Source: Sedimentisphaerales bacterium (lineage in GTDB: Bacteria > Planctomycetota > Phycisphaerae > Sedimentisphaerales > SM23-30). From it: 64,000 nucleotides of DNA. The position numbers were made by a program, and so were the translations under genes. Positions 42,372-50,938 of the stretch are shown piece after piece. The notes beneath the pieces are model-generated. The model searched no databases. It was not told the DNA's origin and was given only the letters and a program-made list of their open reading frames with translations. Each line of letters starts with the position of its first letter. Within the stretch, counting starts at the first letter, position 1. Where the stretch lies: NCBI GenBank assembly GCA_963666285.1, contig OY762711.1. One strand, 5' to 3'.

Positions 42372-45300
42372 ATGAAGCGGACTATCGATGAATTTACCAA
42401 TCTGTATTCTTTGAGTAAGACTTTGCGCTTTGAGCTTAAGCCAGTAGGTGAAACAGCGGAAAAGCTGGAAGAATTCAAAAATGAAGGATTAAAGACAATT
42501 GTCGAACAAGACAAAAATCGGGCAAAGGACTACAAGGAGATAAAAAAGATAATTGATAGCTATCATCGATATTTCATTGATGAAGTATTATCAGGAGAAA
42601 TATTAACTGCTGATGAGATTGTAGAAGCCTATAACCTGTACAGCAATGCCACTAAACCTGGGGCCGCAAAAGAGAAAAAAGAAGAATATGCAAAAACACA
42701 AGAGAAGTTAAGAAAGAAGATTTCCGAGAGGTTTTCTGCTGAGAGCAAGAAATACCATCTTTATAAAGGAGACTTTTCCAAGCTCATCAATATGCAAGGG
42801 TCCGGTAAAAATAAAACTAAAGGCAAATTATGGCACTGGCTAAAAGATAGACTTGATAGCGGAAAAATAACAAAAGAAGAATTTGATCAAGCTGACGAGT
42901 ATATAGCAGACTTTGATAAATTCACAACATACTTTGCTGGCTTTAATCAGAACAGGGATAATCTATATGTAGATAAGGACCAGTCAACTGCTATTGCCTA
43001 TCGCATAGTCCATGAGAATATGGCAAAGCATTTTGAGAATTGTAAGAGAATAAACAAAATTGAAATGGAAGAAAGATATTCAGAACTATCGGAATTACTT
43101 CGCTCTCGAAAAGAGATATTTAAGCCTGCTGAGTTTGTGAAATATCTCGGACAAAAAGGGATTGATATATATAACGAAGCAATCGGTCATAAGGCGGATG
43201 ATATAAATGCAAAAGGTATTAACCAGATAATTAATGAATACCGTCAGAAAAATAATATTAAACCGCGTGAACTGCCTGTAATGACGACATTATACAAGCA
43301 GATATTGAGTGATCGAGAAAACGGATTTGTGATTGATGAATTTTTGAGTGATAAAGAAGTATTTGAAGCTATTCAAGAAGTTAATAGAAGTTTAGTTGAT
43401 TCCGAGCTTGTTGAAAATATTATGAACTGTCTGGATGAATATATGCAAGCAGGCAGCCAAGTTGGAATGTACATAAAAAATGACCTTGCATTGACAGATA
43501 TTTCTCAAAAGTATTTCTGTGACTGGTCTTTAATTGGCAGGGCAATTAATGTTTATGCTGAAGAATCTTTAGGTCTTAATCTGGATAAGCGAGAAGCATT
43601 GAGTAAAGAAGATTTTTACTCAATAGAGTTTGTTCAAAAAACTGTTGATTATTACTATGATTCAATTAATATGCCAGATCAGAAAAAATATTTAGCGGAA
43701 TATTTCAGAGGATTTTCAGTTGATGGTAAATTGTTGAGTGATAGTTTTTGTGAAGCATATAAAGAAGTAGAAGCAGTATTAAAACAGGAAGAACTGAATA
43801 AAGACAGGCGGGTCCCCAAGGATGAAAAAGACAAAGGTGGAAAAGGATTTCAACAGATAGAGAAAATAAAGAAGTACCTGGACAGCGTGTTGGCAATTCA
43901 ACATTTTCTGAAACCACTATATATGATGAAAAGCGGCAAGATGATAGAGTTGGGAGAGAAAAACAGTGACTTTTATGACAGATTTAATCCGCTATATGAG
44001 AGTCTTTCAGACATTATCGGAGTATACAATAAAGTAAGGAATTATGTAACGAAAAAGCCCTACAAAACTGACAAATTTAAGATCAATTTTGAAAATAGCA
44101 CATTACTTGACGGTTGGGATGTTAATAAAGAAATTGCTAATAATAGCGTTTTATTATTCAAAGATAACAAATATTTCCTTGGAGTAATGAAAAAAGATTC
44201 TAACAATATGTTTAATTACAGACAGGAAGCAGATGATTCAAAAAACAAGTTGGAAGCTAAGAAAGCAATAGAGAAAAAGATAATAGCAACTGAATCTGAA
44301 GAATACTATGAAAAAATGGTTTACAAGCTTTTGCCAGATCCATCAAAAATGCTTCCAAAGGTATTTTTTAGTAAAAAGAACATCAATTATTATAGCCCTA
44401 CACAAGAAGTTTTGGAAATTCGAGAAAAAGGGTTATTTAAGAAGGCTGCAAACGACAAAAAATCAATGTATAAATGGATTGATTTCATGAAAGAATCTTT
44501 AGGGAGTCACCCTGAGTGGAATCAATATTTTGATTTCACTTTCACAAAAACTAAAGAATTTAGAGATAGTAGTGAGTTTTACAAAGAAGTTGCCGAACAG
44601 GGATATAGCCTAACATATGATAGAATCAAGAAATCATATATTGACGAACATGTTGCTAAGGGTAATTTATATCTATTTGAGATATACAATAAGGATATGT
44701 CGCCATACAGCAAGGGCAGGCCCAACCTCCATACAAGTTACTGGAAACTGTTATTTGCCCATGAAAACCTTAATGATCTTGTTATTAAATTAAATGGTCA
44801 AGCAGAAGTATTTTTCCGCCCACGATCGTTGAAAAAGAAAGAAACGGCAGTACACAAAGCAAATGAGGCAATAGAAAACAAGAACCCACTGAATGCCAAA
44901 AAGATTAGCAGATTTAACTATGATATAATAAAAGACAAAAGGTTCACACAAGATAAGTTTTTCTTTCACTGCCCTATCACGCTAAATTTCAAATCGGGTG
45001 GATTTGGCAAATTCAATGACAAAGTAATTGAGTTTTTGAGAAATAATCCAGATGTTTGTATTATTGGAATAGATAGAGGCGAACGTCATCTGCTGTATTA
45101 TACAGTTATAAATCAAAAAGGTGTAATCTTGGAACAAGGGAGTTTTAATACTATAACCAGCAATATGACAAGTGAAGGTAAGAAAGTCCCAATGACGACG
45201 GATTATCATAATCTGCTTGATAAAAAAGAGAAGGAGCGAGATGCTGCACGGAAAAGCTGGTCAGCAGTAGAGAATATAAAAGAACTCAAAAGCGGCTATT

Positions 45301-46244
45301 TGTCTCATGTAGTACACAAGCTGGCAACACTTATGGTTAAGCATAATGCTATAGTATGCCTGGAGGATCTGAATTTCGGGTTTAAACGCGGCAGGTTTAA
45401 ATTTGAAAAACAGGTATATCAGAAGTTTGAAAAAGCTCTTATAGATAAGTTGAATTACCTGGTATTTAAGGATAATAAACCGGAGGAAGCCGGACATTAT
45501 CTGAAAGCTTATCAGTTGACGGCTCCATTTGAGAGTTTTCAAAAGCTGGGAAAACAGAGCGGTTTTTTGTTTTATGTAACAAGTGACTATACATCAAAGA
45601 TTGATCCGGTGACAGGATTTGCCAATCGTATTAATACTAGGTACGAATCGGTCGAAAAGAGTTGTAAGCTTTTTGAGAAATTTGAGAGTATCCGGTATAG
45701 TCCAGAGAAGAATTATTTTGAATTTGTAATTGATTACTCACAACTGGAAGGAAGCGGGCTAGAGAAATGGACTATCTGTACGCACGGCAAGGAACGTTAC
45801 AGATATAACAGGGAAAAACAGAATTATGAATGTTATGACGTAACTTCAAACCTGAAAGATCTGTTTAGGTCAGAGCAAATAGAATATACAGCGGGAAAAG
45901 ATATAAGAGCCGACATTTTAGCTAGGAAAGAGAAGAAATATGCTGATTTCTTCAGGAAGTTACTATTCAACGTTTCATTAACAGTCCAATTGAGACATAC
46001 ATATAAAGTTAATAGCGAAGAGAAAGACTTTATTCTATCACCAGTAGCAAAAAATGGTAAGTTTTTTGACTCTCGTGAATACGAGAGTATAGAGAATTCG
46101 CAATTACCAATAAATGCAGATGCCAACGGAGCATATAATATAGCCAGGAAAGGTCTGCTGACATTATTAAAGCAAATTAATGAAGGAAATAAACCCTCAG
46201 CAATTAGGAATGCAGACTGGTTTGATTTTGTGCAGAAAAGATAA
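42372..46244 (+). CDS. cas12a: Type V-A CRISPR effector Cas12a (Cpf1)
   Basis: FTNLYSLSKTLRFELKP, DGWDVNKE, YKLLP..KMLPKVFFS, IIGIDRGERHL, LEDLNFGFKRGR, DANGAYNIARKG. Confidence 0.99.
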   Translation: MKRTIDEFTNLYSLSKTLRFELKPVGETAEKLEEFKNEGLKTIVEQDKNRAKDYKEIKKIIDSYHRYFIDEVLSGEILTADEIVEAYNLYSNATKPGAAKEKKEEYAKTQEKLRKKISERFSAESKKYHLYKGDFSKLINMQGSGKNKTKGKLWHWLKDRLDSGKITKEEFDQADEYIADFDKFTTYFAGFNQNRDNLYVDKDQSTAIAYRIVHENMAKHFENCKRINKIEMEERYSELSELLRSRKEIFKPAEFVKYLGQKGIDIYNEAIGHKADDINAKGINQIINEYRQKNNIKPRELPVMTTLYKQILSDRENGFVIDEFLSDKEVFEAIQEVNRSLVDSELVENIMNCLDEYMQAGSQVGMYIKNDLALTDISQKYFCDWSLIGRAINVYAEESLGLNLDKREALSKEDFYSIEFVQKTVDYYYDSINMPDQKKYLAEYFRGFSVDGKLLSDSFCEAYKEVEAVLKQEELNKDRRVPKDEKDKGGKGFQQIEKIKKYLDSVLAIQHFLKPLYMMKSGKMIELGEKNSDFYDRFNPLYESLSDIIGVYNKVRNYVTKKPYKTDKFKINFENSTLLDGWDVNKEIANNSVLLFKDNKYFLGVMKKDSNNMFNYRQEADDSKNKLEAKKAIEKKIIATESEEYYEKMVYKLLPDPSKMLPKVFFSKKNINYYSPTQEVLEIREKGLFKKAANDKKSMYKWIDFMKESLGSHPEWNQYFDFTFTKTKEFRDSSEFYKEVAEQGYSLTYDRIKKSYIDEHVAKGNLYLFEIYNKDMSPYSKGRPNLHTSYWKLLFAHENLNDLVIKLNGQAEVFFRPRSLKKKETAVHKANEAIENKNPLNAKKISRFNYDIIKDKRFTQDKFFFHCPITLNFKSGGFGKFNDKVIEFLRNNPDVCIIGIDRGERHLLYYTVINQKGVILEQGSFNTITSNMTSEGKKVPMTTDYHNLLDKKEKERDAARKSWSAVENIKELKSGYLSHVVHKLATLMVKHNAIVCLEDLNFGFKRGRFKFEKQVYQKFEKALIDKLNYLVFKDNKPEEAGHYLKAYQLTAPFESFQKLGKQSGFLFYVTSDYTSKIDPVTGFANRINTRYESVEKSCKLFEKFESIRYSPEKNYFEFVIDYSQLEGSGLEKWTICTHGKERYRYNREKQNYECYDVTSNLKDLFRSEQIEYTAGKDIRADILARKEKKYADFFRKLLFNVSLTVQLRHTYKVNSEEKDFILSPVAKNGKFFDSREYESIENSQLPINADANGAYNIARKGLLTLLKQINEGNKPSAIRNADWFDFVQKR

Positions 46245-46339: not shown

Positions 46340-46903
46340 ATGGAGAGCTATATACCCATATCATATCTGAATGATTTTATATTTTGTCCGAGGTCGATCT
46401 ATTTCCATCAGCTCCATGGCCGGTTAAGCACGAAATTGTACCATGATGTCGCCCAGACAGCCGGTCGTGCAGCTCATGAAGCAATAGACAATAAGAAATA
46501 TTCCACTCGCAAGAATATTTTGCAGGGTATAGAGGTATATTGCTCTCAATACAATATTGCCGGTAAGATCGATATTTTTGACATTAAAACCGGTTTACTG
46601 ACTGAGCGTAAGAAGCAGATCAAAGCAATTTACGACGGCTATGTGTTCCAGTTATATGCCCAGTATTTCGGTTTGACAGAGGCTGGCTATGCGGTGAAAA
46701 CCATTCGTTTTTACAGTCGTGATGATAACAAGGTATGGCCGGTAGAATTACCAGACAATAATCAAGAAATGTTTGCTAAATTTGAAGAAACAGTTCGGCA
46801 AATACACAATTATGACCTCAATAATTATCGTCAGACAAATATAAAAAAATGTGAGAACTGCATATATGAGCCATTATGCGACCAATCTTTAGCGTTCAGA
46901 TAA
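46340..46903 (+). CDS. cas4: Cas4 (type V-A)
   Basis: ISYLNDFIFCPRSIYFH, GKID, ERK, QLYAQY, C..C.Y..LC. Confidence 0.95.
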   Translation: MESYIPISYLNDFIFCPRSIYFHQLHGRLSTKLYHDVAQTAGRAAHEAIDNKKYSTRKNILQGIEVYCSQYNIAGKIDIFDIKTGLLTERKKQIKAIYDGYVFQLYAQYFGLTEAGYAVKTIRFYSRDDNKVWPVELPDNNQEMFAKFEETVRQIHNYDLNNYRQTNIKKCENCIYEPLCDQSLAFR

Positions 46904-46918
46904 TAGAAGGGTAATGTT

Positions 46919-47902
46919 ATGTTAAGCGCACCAGATTTCAAACAGAAGCAAATTATCTTTGCCATGTTAAGCCATGGTGAACACTTAAGCTTTAAAAATG
47001 ACAATGTAATAATAAAAGACAGTGAAGGGGCGATCAAGCATCAATCAACATGCTACAGGCTGTTTGCTCTATTGATAGTAGGTCATATAAGCATAACAAG
47101 CGGTTTACTACAGCGAGCCGAGAAATTTGGCTTTACAATAGTACTAATGACCCATACCTTACGAGTTTACGGATTGTGGTCTTGCGGAGCTGAAGGCAAT
47201 GTCTTGCTGCGGAAGAAACAATATGATTATGAAAACTTATCTATAGCAAAACATATAGTCAAGAATAAGATCTTTAATCAATTATCAGCACTAAAACGTA
47301 TTCGAGGTAAAACAGAATCGCAACAAGCAGGGATAACAGACCTGCAATCATATTTGGAGCGTCTGGAAGAAACAAAAGATTTTGATTTACAGGAAATACT
47401 CGGTATAGAAGGAACTGCCGGTCGGTCATATTTCAAGAACATCTTTTCGGATTATAACTGGCAAGGTCGCCGTCCACGAGTAAAGCATGATATGACTAAC
47501 TGCATGATGGACATAGGCTATACGCTACTTTTTAACATAATAGAAGCCTTGCTCAAGGTGTATGGTTTTGACTTATATCGAGGTGTATATCATCAGGAAT
47601 TTTATCAGAGGAAATCGCTGGTATGCGACCTGGTTGAGCCGTTCAGGCCTTTGATTGACTGGCAAATACGGAAGTCATACAATTTGGGCCAGGTAAAGGA
47701 AAAAGATTTTACTATACGCCAGAATCAATATTGCCTATACGGTAAATCTGCAGGCCCATATATTGTAAATCTGCTTGAGCCGCTAATAAAAGAGAAGCAG
47801 AATATATTTCTCTATGTTCAGGGTTATTACCGCAGTTTTATGAAGGGCAAGGAAGCAGAAGAATTTCCATTTTATGAAATGGAGGCAGGTAAATGCTTAT
47901 AG
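46919..47902 (+). CDS. cas1: Cas1 (type V-A)
   Basis: GIEG..GR.YF, N..MDIGYT, GVYH..F..RKSLVCDLVEPFRP. Confidence 0.97.
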   Translation: MLSAPDFKQKQIIFAMLSHGEHLSFKNDNVIIKDSEGAIKHQSTCYRLFALLIVGHISITSGLLQRAEKFGFTIVLMTHTLRVYGLWSCGAEGNVLLRKKQYDYENLSIAKHIVKNKIFNQLSALKRIRGKTESQQAGITDLQSYLERLEETKDFDLQEILGIEGTAGRSYFKNIFSDYNWQGRRPRVKHDMTNCMMDIGYTLLFNIIEALLKVYGFDLYRGVYHQEFYQRKSLVCDLVEPFRPLIDWQIRKSYNLGQVKEKDFTIRQNQYCLYGKSAGPYIVNLLEPLIKEKQNIFLYVQGYYRSFMKGKEAEEFPFYEMEAGKCL

Positions 47903-48168
47903 TGTCATATGATATAAGTGACGACAAATTACGAACACGCTTTGCAAAATACTTGAAAAAGTTTGGATATAGATTACAATATTCGGTGTTCGAGGTGCGA
48001 AACAGTCCTCGCGTTCTAAACTGCATAGCAACTGAAATAGACAGTAATTTCGGTAAACAGTTCGAACAGAAAGACAGTGTAATAATATTTAACCTAAGCC
48101 AACAGTGCAAAAAGTACTGTTACGGTTATGCCCGAAATGACCAGGACGATTTGATAGTAATTGATTGA
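47893..48168 (+). CDS. cas2: Cas2
   Basis: MLIVSYDISDDKLR..L.KFG.RLQYSVFE. Confidence 0.97.
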   Translation: MLIVSYDISDDKLRTRFAKYLKKFGYRLQYSVFEVRNSPRVLNCIATEIDSNFGKQFEQKDSVIIFNLSQQCKKYCYGYARNDQDDLIVID

Positions 48169-48294
48169 AATGTAAACCCTGGTATTAATGGCCTGCGAAC
48201 CGTTAATATAGTTGAAAATATGCCGATTATAACGATTATATCTGGATTTGCCTGTAAACTTACACAATCTGTAATGTTTGTACGAAGAATAGCC
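48169..48294 (+). promoter_or_regulatory. CRISPR leader
   Basis: AT-rich 126 nt between cas2 and the first repeat. Confidence 0.7.
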
Positions 48295-48918
48295 GTCTAG
48301 AAGACATATTAAATTTCTACTGTTGTAGATGTTTTAGAACCACAGATGGACACGGAGTCTAGAAGACATATTAAATTTCTACTGTTGTAGATTCGATTCC
48401 TTACCACCCGCAGAGCAAGTCTAGAAGACATATTAAATTTCTACTGTTGTAGATTACGATCAGCATTGGTTAAATCAGCAGGTCTAGAAGACATATTAAA
48501 TTTCTACTGTTGTAGATTTCTTACTTGGTGTTATCTCTCAAATAGGTCTAGAAGACATATTAAATTTCTACTGTTGTAGATCTAAGTCGCATGCTCTGTG
48601 AATTACAGTCTAGAAGACATATTAAATTTCTACTGTTGTAGATCTGATATCATGGACGGATTATAAGCTTGTCTAGAAGACATATTAAATTTCTACTGTT
48701 GTAGATATAATAATTAGTATCTCTTTTGCTTTGGTCTAGAAGACATATTAAATTTCTACTGTTGTAGATTTACAATATCTTTTGCCTCAATATCTGTCTA
48801 GAAGACATATTAAATTTCTACTGTTGTAGATCGAACGTATACCCCCCTGTCTTCAGGGGTCTAGAAGACATATTAAATTTCTACTGTTGTAGATATAGTT
48901 TCGTGCCTTTCGTGTTTT
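48295..48918 (+). CRISPR. Type V-A array, part 1: repeats 1-10, spacers 1-9 (26-28 nt), left part of spacer 10
   Basis: Repeat GTCTAGAAGACATATTAAATTTCTACTGTTGTAGAT at 48295, 48357, 48419, 48482, 48546, 48608, 48671, 48734, 48796, 48859; canonical Cas12a handle. Confidence 0.99.
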
Positions 48919-49041
48919 TCTATGAAGCCAGAATGCAACATTAATTTTCTAATTTTATTCATTTTTGCTATAATTCCTTTATCTTGCAAAGGATAGGGCT
49001 CTGCTGAGGAGCAACCCGAGCGTTGCAAGTTGTCGAGAAGC

Positions 49042-49070
49042 CGGGGCGGTTTTACACCGCCTCGTTTTTT
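49042..49070 (+). terminator. Intrinsic terminator inside IS
   Basis: CGGGGCGGT-tttac-ACCGCCTCG-TTTTTT. Confidence 0.75.
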
Positions 49071-49139
49071 GCTTTTTGACCTTATGCGATAAACCTATTT
49101 AAAACAATTTTCGCGTAGCGAATCATTATTTACCTGATT

Positions 49140-49270
49140 GTTTCATCTTTCTATCCGGAGTGTCCGAGGCTGTATTTTACGCCATGGTTCCATTATATAT
49201 ATTGCGATACGGCTTAATTTTCGTGTCAGGTTCAAAACCCAAATGCACGACCAAGGTTCCGTATCGATTT
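49140..49270 (-). ncRNA. Putative bridge/seek RNA of the IS1111-type element
   Basis: Stem CGATACGG/CCGTATCG enclosing matches to the insertion site; adjacent hairpin flanked by matches to the element ends. Confidence 0.7.
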
Positions 49271-49319
49271 CAATCGGGAAAAATCATAGGTAATATTTTA
49301 TCTTTTACTTATATTGGTA

Positions 49320-50366
49320 TCAAACACTTTGCAACTCGGGCATCTGCCAACTTGTCCCATCTCGCATCATCGCCCACAATCGTACGAACAACCGTCGGGC
49401 TGTAGCTACTATCGCTATTTTTGCACGAGTTTTACTTCCCCTCTTTATTCTTTCGTATGTTTCTTTTATCCATGGATTCCAACGCAAACCCAGCCAGCAA
49501 ACCTCAACAAGTAATGCTCGCAATAACCTATTGCCATATTTACTTATCCGCCCATGACGGTCTGTATTACCTGATTGGTACTGACGCGGTGTCATACCAA
49601 TATAGCTGCCAACTTGTTTGCAATTCTTAAATCTATGTGGATCATCAATATAAGCTGCAACTGCCTCTGCCAGACGTGGGCCAACTCCGGGAACAGTCTG
49701 TAATAGTTTTACTTTTTCATCAGTACTATTTAACTCTTCCAGTTTATCTTCAACTACTTGCAAAGCGTCTGTTAATTGTTCCAGTAATATAAGCTCGCTC
49801 CATAGATTGCCTTTCCAGAGCTCATCTGGTTTAACTTTATCCATTGGCATAGCCATACTTCTTAACTGTTCCAGATTCTGCTTAGACCAGCACTTTCTGC
49901 CTGACGGCAACGAATACGCCTGGGCATTTAATAAAGAACGAATAGTATTTTTTACCTGAGTTATCCGTTCTGTAAGGCTCTGGCGATAATTAATTAAAGA
50001 TCGTTTCTCGCGAATTTCCTTTTTAGGAACATAGACAGTTGATAAATCTCCTAAAGCAGCACGCTTGGCCAGCCAAAATGCATCCTTTTTATCTGTTTTC
50101 TTCTTCAATTTTCTGCCAGACCATTCGCCGGTATTAGTATTTGCCACTTCATATTTTAATTCCAGGGTGTCAAAAAGGTCACAAATCCAGCCTATGATAT
50201 CACAAGCCTCAAATACAATAAGATCAGCAGGGTGAGATACTGCCAGGTCATGAAGCTCTTGAGGGTTAGTCTTAAACGACTTATATGTAGCCTTACAGCT
50301 TTTTACCTCATAAAAACAAACTACACTCTTGAATTTTCCTAAATCAATTGACATAATAGTCTTCAT
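49320..50366 (-). CDS. IS110-family DEDD recombinase/transposase
   Basis: IDLGK, VFEA, KTDKKDA (DEDD); TVPGVG; YIGMTP.QYQSG (catalytic Ser); AIVATARRL. Confidence 0.97.
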   Translation of the reverse strand: MKTIMSIDLGKFKSVVCFYEVKSCKATYKSFKTNPQELHDLAVSHPADLIVFEACDIIGWICDLFDTLELKYEVANTNTGEWSGRKLKKKTDKKDAFWLAKRAALGDLSTVYVPKKEIREKRSLINYRQSLTERITQVKNTIRSLLNAQAYSLPSGRKCWSKQNLEQLRSMAMPMDKVKPDELWKGNLWSELILLEQLTDALQVVEDKLEELNSTDEKVKLLQTVPGVGPRLAEAVAAYIDDPHRFKNCKQVGSYIGMTPRQYQSGNTDRHGRISKYGNRLLRALLVEVCWLGLRWNPWIKETYERIKRGSKTRAKIAIVATARRLFVRLWAMMRDGTSWQMPELQSV

Positions 50367-50489
50367 AGCCAGAATACTCCGTATAAAATAGGTTAAATAT
50401 TTGAGCGTCCCTGTGACAGCTCGTGCTAAAATTATTGTGTATTATAACACAAGCCATGCTACAGGAATATTCTGGCTTTCATTGTATTT

Positions 50490-50718
50490 TCGTGGTCTAG
50501 AAGACATATTAAATTTCTACTGTTGTAGATTCACATCATCGCTTATTGATGAAGATGGTCTAGAAGACATATTAAATTTCTACTGTTGTAGATTTGCCTT
50601 CTTTCTTTTAAGTTTTATAGTCTAGAAGACATATTAAATTTCTACTGTTGTAGATTAAAAAAGGTGACGTGATCGATTATGGGTCTAGAAGACATATTAA
50701 ATTTCTACTGTTGTAGAT
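50490..50718 (+). CRISPR. Type V-A array, part 2: end of spacer 10, repeats 11-14, spacers 11-13
   Basis: Same repeat at 50495, 50558, 50620, 50683. Confidence 0.99.
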
Positions 50719-50816
50719 TTGGCTCCGCCCTTAGAACATACGAGCAGTTGAACAGTAAAAAGAGGAGAGAGGCGGGAAGAAATTATAAATTATAAATGTT
50801 GAATTATGAAAAAAAA

Positions 50817-50867
50817 TCTCATCTTTTATCGGATTCCATATAAGGGAGAACCAGATAAAAGATGAGA
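50817..50867. terminator. Hairpin between array and convergent lysA
   Basis: TCTCATCTTTTATC-N23-GATAAAAGATGAGA; A-run on the left gives a U tract for the minus strand. Confidence 0.55.
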
Positions 50868-50938
50868 AAAGTTATATGTAAAGATCGCATTAAATCCACC
50901 ATTAAACTAGTGGACCGGCAGCCCTGAGACAAGGCTAT

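What the first reader, a model, noticed from the sequence alone, without database searches (positions are those of the whole stretch)
48895..50494. IS1111-type element inserted precisely into a CRISPR spacer that mimics its target
Removing ~48919..50489 restores a 29-nt spacer ATAGTTTCGTGCCTTTCGTGTTTTTCGTG between intact repeats 10 and 11, with no long duplication, as expected for IS110 recombination. IS110/IS1111 elements are RNA-guided and often target repeats. Inference: CRISPR acquisition copied the IS target into the array, creating a landing site. The insertion then truncated a possibly self-targeting spacer, although its 5' ~24 nt remain and may still guide.
Basis: partly seen in the sequence, partly recalled or inferred. 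Interest (0 to 1): 0.8.

Follow-up and report, generated by a model that had tools for sequence, protein, structure and literature searches.

The report
Guided jumping gene inside CRISPR spacer
An RNA-guided insertion sequence sits inside one spacer of a bacterial CRISPR array because that spacer carries the short DNA motif the element's own guide RNA seeks, so a CRISPR memory can import a landing site for mobile DNA.

Summary
Spacer 10 of a type V-A (Cas12a) array of 14 identical repeats holds a 1571-bp IS1111-type element of the IS110 family.

Eight other copies in the genome sit in the same orientation. All are in a motif of three TTTCGTG heptads, cut at TTTC^GTGGT. The spacer carries its own version of that motif.

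I located the element's seekRNA hairpin. In 14 related elements, its two loop segments match each element's own flanks far better than other elements' flanks; 0 of 5000 permutations reach the observed score. The guided 15-bp target is the last 14 nt of the spacer plus the first base of repeat 11. It matches the guides about as well as the natural sites do.

The spacer has no near match in its own genome, so it is not self-targeting. Its sequence family occurs in tailed-phage contigs (exact 25-mer) and in bacterial metagenome contigs (1 mismatch in 29). The exact protospacer was not found.

The first 25-26 nt of the spacer are intact. A terminator-like hairpin inside the IS probably cuts off spacers 11-13.

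The element is an ordinary member of a known IS kind in an unusual, well-explained place. I found no earlier report.

The parts
42372..46244 (+). cas12a (1290 aa)
   Evidence: TIGR04330 cas_Cpf1, 1149 bits against a cutoff of 300
46340..46903 (+). type V cas4 (187 aa)
   Evidence: TIGR04328, 238.5 bits
46919..47902 (+). cas1 (327 aa)
   Evidence: PF01867, E 1.3e-52
47893..48168 (+). cas2 (91 aa)
   Evidence: PF09827, E 2.2e-16
48295..48894 (+). CRISPR repeats 1-10 with spacers 1-9 (leader side)
   Evidence: Identical 36-nt repeats, spacers 26-28 nt
48895..48919 (+). Left 25 nt of spacer 10: ATAG, two full TTTCGTG heptads, and the start of the third up to the TTT core. 48910-48919 is the T-side of the guided target plus the core.
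48920..50490 (-). IS1111-type insertion sequence, 1571 bp including one copy of the 3-bp core. Placements shifted by 1 bp either way are equivalent.
   Evidence: 9 copies in contig C1 at 98-100% identity. Ends conserved across the family.
49320..50366 (-). Transposase, 348 aa, intact
   Evidence: PF01548 + PF02371. NF033542, 214 bits against 140. D8, E53, D92, D95 and S265-G266 invariant in 14 relatives.
49206..49265 (-). seekRNA target-binding hairpin: basal stem, internal loop, apical hairpin
   Evidence: Same architecture in 14 of 14 family members; alignment
49242..49251 (-). T guide segment (5' side of the loop), complementary to the core plus 7 nt of right flank
49218..49226 (-). B guide segment (3' side of the loop), identical to 5 nt of left flank plus the 3-nt core
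49042..49074 (+). Terminator-like hairpin (9 pairs, 7 G-C) with a T run, facing transcription from the CRISPR leader
50491..50494 (+). Right 4 nt of spacer 10 (CGTG). With G50495 of repeat 11 it forms the B-side of the guided target.
50495..50718 (+). CRISPR repeats 11-14 with spacers 11-13 (leader-distal)

Best explanation
A seekRNA-guided IS1111-type insertion sequence recombined into spacer 10 because the spacer's last 14 nt, plus the first G of repeat 11, reproduce its 15-bp target.

In transposase sense the target is 5 nt of left flank, a 3-nt AAA core and 7 nt of right flank. In array sense it reads TCGTGNN-TTT-CGTGG.

The element's natural targets are the third heptad of a TTTCGTG x3 motif inside a dispersed intergenic repeat of the chromosome. 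The spacer carries a variant of the same motif, taken up earlier from DNA that holds this motif family. That DNA could be a tailed phage or another bacterium; the source is not identified.

What is shown: the insertion, its precision and orientation, the shared target, and the guide segments with their covariation.

What is inferred: that the RNA is made and used; that the spacer came from foreign DNA (my odds about 0.6); that crRNA 10 is still functional; and that spacers 11-13 are cut off from leader transcription by the terminator-like hairpin inside the IS.
For: - Copies and orientation: 9 of 9 copies have the same orientation and junctions...TTTC^[IS]^GTGGT.
- Empty sites: 11 uninterrupted sites carrying at least two heptads exist, and 7 of the genome's empty sites match the full consensus. 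The heptads are therefore target, not cargo.
- Guides: 14 family members from 12 genomes (this one and 11 of its order) share one hairpin architecture. The 3' loop segment equals each element's own left flank plus core, mean 6.79 of 8 against 3.44 of 8 for other elements' flanks. The reverse complement of the 5' loop segment equals core plus right flank, 7.92 of 10 against 4.65 of 10. 0 of 5000 permutations reach the observed total. The order, T 5' of B in a non-coding region downstream of tnp, is as described for IS1111 seekRNAs (PMC11187229, sections read).
- CRISPR site against natural sites: the CRISPR site scores B 7/8 and T 7/10. Of the 8 natural sites, 6 score 7/8 and 8/10 and one scores 7/8 and 7/10. 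One row was mis-parsed by my script; its flanks equal the first group.
- Guide segments are identical in all 9 copies.
- Spacer family: the exact 25-mer (spacer positions 5-29) occurs in 5 viral loci. Three metagenome contigs carry 1-mismatch versions of all 29 nt.
Against: - No allele with the empty spacer was seen. Public contigs collapse the array, and no related genome shares its spacers.
- The exact protospacer was not found in viral or metagenome contigs.
- Mismatch counting alone is not specific. 183 genome sites reach B>=7 and T>=7, so other determinants must exist.
- A second register 9 bp further into the spacer scores better (B 8/8, T 8/10) and is empty.
- No RNA data exist for the seekRNA or the crRNAs.
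- The raw count of triple-heptad hits in viral contigs (119 stretches) is barely above a reversed-pattern control (90).
Confidence: 0.8

Rival explanations
1. The spacer was sampled from the host's own chromosome, from one of its heptad repeats. The IS insertion was then selected because it relieved self-targeting.
For: The chromosome holds about 20 copies of a related motif. Spacer 2 of the same array does have a 1-mismatch match in a resident Mu-like prophage, so matches to resident DNA occur in this array.
Against: The best ungapped match of the restored spacer in the genome has 5 mismatches in the first 23 nt and 8 in 29. The chromosomal copies use 3-nt/2-3-nt linkers (TTC, AA or AAT), whereas the spacer uses 2-nt linkers (CC, TT). 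The insertion lies after spacer position 25-26. Cas12a guides need roughly the first 20 nt (recalled knowledge), so the insertion would not disarm the guide.
Confidence: 0.08
2. The heptads to the left of the IS travel with it as part of a longer mobile unit, or arrived by homologous recombination. In that case the spacer does not mimic a target at all.
For: The first DNA search aligned the other copies from query position 5 (2 for one copy), so it included the heptads.
Against: 11 sites in the genome carry heptads without an IS. The linkers between heptads differ between the CRISPR site and the chromosomal sites, while the IS body is 98-100% identical. If the heptads were cargo, the residual spacer would be only 4 + 3 nt. 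Relatives in other genomes have unrelated flanks that match their own guides.
Confidence: 0.03
3. Assembly artefact: a multi-copy IS was wrongly placed in the array.
For: The IS has 9 copies. Short-read contigs of runs X7, X8 and X9 do not bridge the spacer-IS junctions, and they collapse the array through the 36-nt repeat.
Against: The array copy has private differences: 8-10 positions against the six near-identical copies, including a 1-nt insertion. A misplaced consensus copy would lack these. Both junctions fall at the exact family-typical position. The remainder is a normal-length spacer ending in a complete heptad, as in natural relatives of the sequence. Contig C1 is 6.15 Mb.
Confidence: 0.04
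4. The element recognises the CRISPR repeat, as some Tn7-like transposons do, rather than the spacer.
For: The first base or two of repeat 11 (G, T) coincide with the natural right flank GTGGT.
Against: Only 1 of the 13 repeat-spacer-repeat units is occupied. The guide segments cover 14 nt of spacer and 1 nt of repeat, and that one base is the mismatched B position. The 8 other copies are not at CRISPR repeats.
Confidence: 0.03

Closest known systems
IS1111-family elements with a seekRNA (ISEc11, ISPa11, ISKpn4; Siddiquee et al. 2024, PMC11187229; abstract and sections 6, 9, 13 read)
   Same: DEDD transposase of 330-350 aa with a G-x-x-P-x4-S-G motif. Subterminal inverted repeats. Long non-coding region downstream of tnp. 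A short RNA with a top-strand match 5' of a bottom-strand match, the two overlapping in the target. Each lineage has its own target.
   Different: The transposase shows no close similarity to anything named in the tools I had. The target is a three-heptad motif, and one copy lies in a CRISPR spacer. RNA production and activity are not tested here.
IS621 / ISCro4 bridge-RNA recombinases (IS110 group; PDB 8wt6, 9t56)
   Same: The logic is the same: an internal loop of a structured RNA reads both strands of the target around a short core. The C-terminal domains are related (E 3e-14 and 2e-15 over residues about 203-339).
   Different: In the IS110 group the guide RNA lies upstream of tnp and there are no subterminal repeats (PMC11187229, section 6). 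Here it lies downstream and the repeats are present. phmmer did not align the N-terminal domain.
REP-targeting IS110-family elements such as ISPpu9 of Pseudomonas putida (PMC12288879; only the start of the abstract seen in a search listing)
   Same: Multi-copy element whose natural sites are a dispersed intergenic repeat of the host chromosome.
   Different: The repeat here is a mosaic element with a 9/10-bp-period heptad triplet, not a palindromic REP.
Tn7-like transposons of cyanobacteria that target CRISPR arrays (PMC11837452; passages read)
   Same: A mobile element sits inside a spacer of an otherwise intact array, in one orientation, apparently without degrading the array.
   Different: Going by that paper's title, those elements target the repeats, and they insert in many arrays. 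Here an RNA guide reads the spacer itself, so only a spacer with the right sequence is a site.
IS6110 in the direct-repeat (CRISPR) locus of Mycobacterium tuberculosis (recalled, not checked here)
   Same: An IS interrupts a CRISPR array.
   Different: IS6110 is an IS3-family element with a preferred hot spot. It has no RNA guide, and no spacer-encoded target mimic is involved.

Membership tests
IS1111 group of the IS110 family | DEDD (RuvC-like) N-terminal domain plus PF02371 C-terminal domain | tested here: met
   PF01548 E 1.8e-13 and PF02371 E 1.5e-26. NF033542, 214 bits against a cutoff of 140. D8, E53, D92 and D95 invariant in 14 relatives.
IS1111 group of the IS110 family | Longer non-coding region downstream of tnp | tested here: met
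   399 nt downstream against 125 nt upstream. Criterion from PMC11187229, section 6.
IS1111 group of the IS110 family | Subterminal inverted repeats | tested here: met
   ATGAAAGCCAGAAT near the left end and ATTCTGGCTTCAT near the right end, with a 1-nt indel. The same pair is found in 13 relatives' loci.
IS1111 group of the IS110 family | C-terminal G-L-x-P-x4-S/T-G motif and a length of 330-350 aa | tested here: met
   G257-M-T-P-R-Q-Y-Q-S265-G266; 348 aa. Motif as given in PMC11187229, section 6.
IS1111 group of the IS110 family | seekRNA with a top-strand match 5' of a bottom-strand match, the two overlapping in the target | tested here: met
   In sequence only. Guide-flank matches in 14 elements, with 0 of 5000 permutations reaching the observed total. 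Common fold.
IS1111 group of the IS110 family | Site- and orientation-specific insertion with no duplication beyond the shared core | tested here: met
   9 of 9 copies, compared with empty sites.
IS1111 group of the IS110 family | The RNA is expressed and bound by the transposase; a circular intermediate forms | not testable with these tools
   No RNA runs were found (0 rows on record as RNA). No wet-lab data.
IS1111 group of the IS110 family | Transposase clusters with IS1111 references in a tree | not tested
IS110 group (IS621-type bridge RNA) | Guide RNA in a long non-coding region upstream of tnp, and no subterminal repeats | tested here: not met
   The upstream region is only 125 nt. The hairpin lies downstream and subterminal repeats are present.
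Type V-A CRISPR-Cas | cas12a with cas4-cas1-cas2 and an adjacent array | tested here: met
   That the repeat's 3' end is the Cas12a crRNA handle is recalled, not tested.
Rfam RNA families | Match of the non-coding region to a curated family | tested here: not met
   0 matches at E <= 1 in 48200-50900.

The most novel reading that the evidence does not exclude
This IS clade specialises on 9-bp-period triple-heptad motifs. These stand in the short gaps before genes in tailed phages and in intergenic DNA of bacteria.

Support for a clade-wide habit: a 66%-identical relative in another genus sits in a GTGAAG x3 motif with the same period, and its guide is changed to match.

If so, any CRISPR system that samples such DNA will regularly import landing sites. 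Arrays would then act as sinks or safe harbours for RNA-guided IS elements. Conversely, the IS could enter phage genomes at these motifs, either to hitch-hike or to cripple them. 140 of 145 triple-heptad sites in the viral loci match the guides at least as well as the CRISPR site does.
Probability: 0.15. Interest if true: 0.7.

Novelty: new member of a known kind. Interest (0 to 1): 0.5.

Why it matters
It links two RNA-guided systems in one locus. A CRISPR spacer is a stored copy of outside DNA. Here it doubles as a target for an IS whose guide RNA seeks the same motif.

This shows a cost of CRISPR memory that I did not find described. Six full-text searches turned up IS elements and Tn7-like elements in arrays, but no spacer-encoded target.

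The locus also gives a natural experiment on seekRNA specificity. Three kinds of accepted target differ at known positions. One equally matched register is not used.

It remains a single event with an ordinary element, so its general weight depends on finding more cases.

Tried and rejected
- Rfam on 48200-50900: no match at E <= 1.
- Exact 26-nt left part of the spacer: 0 hits in viral contigs and 0 in metagenome contigs.
- Spacers 9 and 11: 0 exact hits each in viral contigs. The other spacers were not searched.
- Relatives of the transposase in viral contigs. With the single protein: none. With the 14-sequence alignment: 5 distant loci (27-44% identity); in the two I inspected there were no recognisable IS ends or hairpin.
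- Genome-contig scan with the transposase: only 2 distant loci at 28-32% identity. Relatives came from the genome search instead, where 32 of 301 genomes of the order matched at E <= 1e-40.
- Sequencing runs. X7, X8, X9 (one study, organism A) and X1 were laid on the stretch. All are contigs. The array part has no cover. The one joint, 48294 to 50683 in X8, runs through the 36-nt repeat (both = 36), so it is an assembly collapse and not an allele. This gives no evidence on the empty spacer either way.
- Same array in the family: 1 of 24 other genomes (G042) has an array with a related repeat. None of its 58 spacers is shared or holds a heptad.
- Raw abundance of the heptad triplet in viral contigs is not informative. 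The real pattern gave 119 stretches and the reversed control 90. Only the subclass with unequal linkers stands out: 76 sites against 19 in the control, and 48 of the 76 are followed by GTT.
- The GTGAAG x3 scan gave 122 or more stretches. I did not analyse it, because a period of 9 also fits coding repeats.
- Guide-match scan of the genome at B >= 7 and T >= 7 gave 183 sites, too lax to rank targets.
- Literature search for the heptad: nothing relevant.
- The match to the repeat's 3' end at C1:5258568 is a chance 17 of 19 inside what looks like a coding sequence.
- In one search one of 9 rows (the copy at 3961181) was mis-parsed, because that copy has a substitution in its right-end repeat.
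Full report
WHAT IS THERE

The window carries a type V-A CRISPR-Cas locus. It comprises cas12a (42372-46244; TIGR04330, 1149 bits), cas4, cas1 and cas2. An array of 14 identical 36-nt repeats follows, starting at 48295. Twelve spacers are 26-28 nt long. The thirteenth, number 10 from the cas side, is 1600 nt long and spans exactly 48895-50494.

Inside that interval lies a 1571-bp element. It has one intact 348-aa ORF on the minus strand (49320-50366). The ORF matches PF01548 and PF02371 and NCBIfam NF033542, 'IS110 family RNA-guided transposase' (214 bits against a cutoff of 140).

TTTTC stands at both junctions, so the borders can be drawn at 48919-50489, 48920-50490 or 48921-50491 with the same result. 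A related array in genome G042 has spacers of 25-32 nt, and by my count 13 of its 58 are 29 nt.

THE ELEMENT

- In transposase sense it has 125 nt before the gene and 399 nt after it.
- It has subterminal inverted repeats: ATGAAAGCCAGAAT and ATTCTGGCTTCAT.
- It has the C-terminal G-M-T-P-R-Q-Y-Q-S-G motif.
- These are the features that Siddiquee et al. use to separate the IS1111 group from the IS110 group (PMC11187229, section 6, read).
- Among solved structures, only the C-terminal domain aligns, to ISCro4 and IS621 transposases (E 2e-15 and 3e-14).
- Rfam has no family for the non-coding part.

OTHER COPIES AND THE NATURAL TARGET

Contig C1 holds 8 more copies at 98-100% identity. All 9 copies lie in the same orientation relative to their flanks.

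- Seven are in TTTCGTG-TTC-TTTCGTG-AA(T)-TTTC^GTGGTTG.
- One is in TTTCGTGAATTTTTGTGTATTTC^GTGGTTC.
- The array copy is in TTTCGTG-CC-TTTCGTG-TT-TTTC^GTGGTC, where the final GTC belongs to repeat 11.

Eleven sites with at least two heptads are uninterrupted. Seven empty sites in the genome match the full consensus GTG-N2/3-TTTCGTGGT, which is expected about 0.76 times per spacing variant.

The chromosomal sites lie in a mosaic intergenic repeat next to ordinary genes: a sigma factor, DAHP synthase, FeoB and a gluconolactonase-like gene. One pair of sites brackets a group II intron. The heptads are therefore the target and not part of the element.

THE GUIDE

A protein search of 301 genomes of the same order found relatives in 32 of them at E <= 1e-40. 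I took 13 loci from 11 genomes, at 45-66% protein identity. All have the same end repeats.

In the downstream non-coding region all 14 elements, including this one, carry one hairpin. It has a basal stem whose sequence differs from element to element, an internal loop of about ten bases on each side, and an apical GGGC/GCCC hairpin.

The two loop sides are the variable parts.
- The 3' side (B) equals five bases of the element's own left flank plus a three-base core. The mean match is 6.79 of 8, against 3.44 of 8 for other elements' flanks.
- The reverse complement of the 5' side (T) equals the core plus seven bases of right flank. The mean match is 7.92 of 10 (13 elements with enough flank), against 4.65 of 10.
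- None of 5000 random reassignments of flanks to guides reaches the observed total. Several elements share targets, which makes this control conservative.

The order, T before B in a downstream non-coding region with the two matches overlapping in the target, is as reported for IS1111 seekRNAs (PMC11187229, section 9).

The closest relative (G098, 66% identity) makes the point. Its B segment reads CGTGAAGA where this element has CACGAAAA. It sits in ...CCGTGAAGAT..., within a GTGAAG x3 motif of the same 9-bp period. Its T segment matches less well (6 of 10).

In this element the hairpin is 49206-49265, T is 49242-49251 and B is 49218-49226, all on the minus strand. All nine copies have identical guide segments.

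WHY THE SPACER WAS HIT

Read with these guides, the target is 15 bp. In array orientation it is TCGTGTT-TTT-CGTGG, at 48910-48919 plus 50491-50495. That is 14 bases of spacer and the first G of repeat 11.

- The array site scores B 7/8 and T 7/10.
- Six natural sites score 7/8 and 8/10.
- The odd natural site scores 7/8 and 7/10.
- One row was mis-parsed by my script, but its flanks equal the first group.

The spacer is thus about as good a target as the accepted natural ones. The differences are confined to the two-base linker.

Two caveats apply.
- Plain mismatch counting is not specific: 183 genome sites reach 7 and 7.
- A second register nine bases further into the spacer scores 8/8 and 8/10 and is empty. 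With a single event this may be chance. It may also mean that the G of GTGG matters, although the guide does not pair with it.

WHERE THE SPACER CAME FROM

It did not come from this genome as it stands. The best ungapped match has 5 mismatches in the first 23 nt and 8 in 29. The chromosomal motif copies also use different linkers.

The exact 26-nt left part is absent from the viral and metagenome collections. The sequence nevertheless belongs to a natural family.

- Viral contigs. The 25 bases from position 5 to 29 occur exactly in 5 viral loci (L023, L038, L081, L102, L108). Some of these are duplicates of one another, and the four bases before the match differ from ATAG.
- Metagenome contigs. 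A pattern of ATAG plus three heptads with free linkers finds 14 metagenome stretches, about 10 distinct contexts. Three have a single mismatch to the whole 29-mer (L427, L428, L429). Those contigs carry ordinary bacterial genes: DnaB, FtsY, a histidine kinase with its response regulator, and an oxidoreductase. TTTV stands at the PAM position in only one of the ten contexts (L424).
- What the viral loci are. They are true tailed phages, with tape measure, tail assembly protein, large terminase and primase. In them the motif, read as CACGAAA x3, fills short gaps between co-directional genes. In 34 of 124 sites a start codon opening an ORF of at least 50 codons (30 if it runs off the locus) follows within 15 nt (no control was run for this count).
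- Control. The raw number of viral hits (119 stretches) is hardly above a reversed-pattern control (90). What stands out is the subclass with unequal linkers: 76 sites against 19 in the control. Of those 76, 48 are followed by GTT.
- Genomes of the order. 17 of 301 genomes hold the pattern, against one hit of the reversed control.

I conclude that the spacer was taken from DNA carrying this motif family, either phage or bacterial, and that the donor is unknown. The function of the motif is also unknown.

CONSEQUENCES FOR THE ARRAY

This part is inference. The first 25 nt of spacer 10 are untouched, and the next base happens to be the same, so 26 nt are preserved. Mature Cas12a crRNAs keep roughly 20-25 nt of spacer (recalled, not tested), so guide 10 should survive.

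Transcription from the leader enters the IS antisense to its gene. After about 120 nt it meets a terminator-like hairpin with a T run (49042-49074; 9 pairs, 7 of them G-C). Spacers 11-13 are then probably silent, unless one of the weak promoter-like sites near 50330-50390 reads out. The count of promoter-like sites does not exceed that in shuffles (12 against 10.5).

AGE

The array copy differs at 8-10 positions from a cluster of six copies that differ from each other at 0-3 positions. Two further copies are 14-22 differences away. The array copy is therefore not part of the latest burst. Its gene, ends and guide are intact.

RIVALS

- Heptads as cargo of the IS: ruled out by the empty sites, the differing linkers and the 7-nt residue it would leave.
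- Self-derived, self-targeting spacer rescued by the IS: no match in the genome, and the insertion would not disarm the guide.
- Repeat-directed insertion, as in the Tn7-like elements of cyanobacteria (PMC11837452): only one of 13 units is hit, and the guide reads the spacer.
- Misassembly: unlikely given the copy's private differences, but not excluded by the public contigs, which collapse the array.

COMPARISON AND NOVELTY

The element is a new member of the IS1111 group. Its mechanism is the published seekRNA mechanism, and here the guide positions are supported by covariation.

IS elements and Tn7-like transposons inside arrays are known. I did not find an RNA-guided IS whose site is encoded by the spacer itself. 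This rests on six full-text searches and on two look-ups of this scan's earlier notes, which returned nothing on this point. The library does not hold most subscription journals.

LIMITS

- There are no RNA data, no empty allele and no donor of the spacer.
- Guide positions rest on sequence comparison of 14 related, non-independent elements.
- The counts in viral and metagenome collections are for exact matches only.

Noticed in passing
window 48990-49022 (inside the IS non-coding region); also G000:C1:155275 and 4656457: A 33-nt block (AGGATAGGGCTCTGCTGAGGAGCAACCCGAGCG) flanked by a short inverted repeat. It recurs with 5 or fewer mismatches at two non-IS places, there inside a different inverted repeat. 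One of these is about 120 nt past an ORF that by eye looks like an IS256-type transposase (no family search run). Many public contigs share only this block and diverge on both sides. There is no Rfam hit. It may be an unknown hairpin motif shared by different mobile elements.
   Followed up: partly
window 48393-48418 (spacer 2) and G000:C1:5307714: Spacer 2 has a 1-mismatch match (position 17) in the chromosome. The match lies inside the transposase gene of a Mu-like prophage (phrog_310, next to a MuB-like gene). CTTC stands at the PAM position. This is a possible tolerated self-target.
   Followed up: partly
viral loci L015-L133; metagenome loci L416-L429; G022:C1:2440743-2443381: A family of three TTTCGTG heptads at a 9-bp period, usually followed by GTT. 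It stands in short gaps before genes in tailed phages and in intergenic DNA of bacteria. In a same-genus genome it occurs 7 times within 2.7 kb, inside a repeated unit. Its function is unknown, and I found no literature on it.
   Followed up: partly
L137 and L175 (genome G098): The closest relative of the IS (66% protein identity) sits in a GTGAAG x3 motif with the same 9-bp period, and its B guide segment is changed to match. This suggests the clade tracks this class of motif.
   Followed up: partly
window 48899-48914 (second heptad register of spacer 10): A second guide-compatible register (B 8/8, T 8/10) remains unoccupied, 9 bp from the insertion point.
   Followed up: no
L011:7755-9650 (G000:C1:910754-912649): A group II intron lies between an IS-occupied and an empty copy of the heptad repeat. 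Evidence: RF02005 at 110 bits, a reverse transcriptase ORF, and RF00029 at 53 bits.
   Followed up: no
L202 (G042:C147:63162-66904): An array of 59 repeats in another genus of the family. The last 22 nt of its repeat are identical to those here, and the 5' half differs. No spacers are shared.
   Followed up: no
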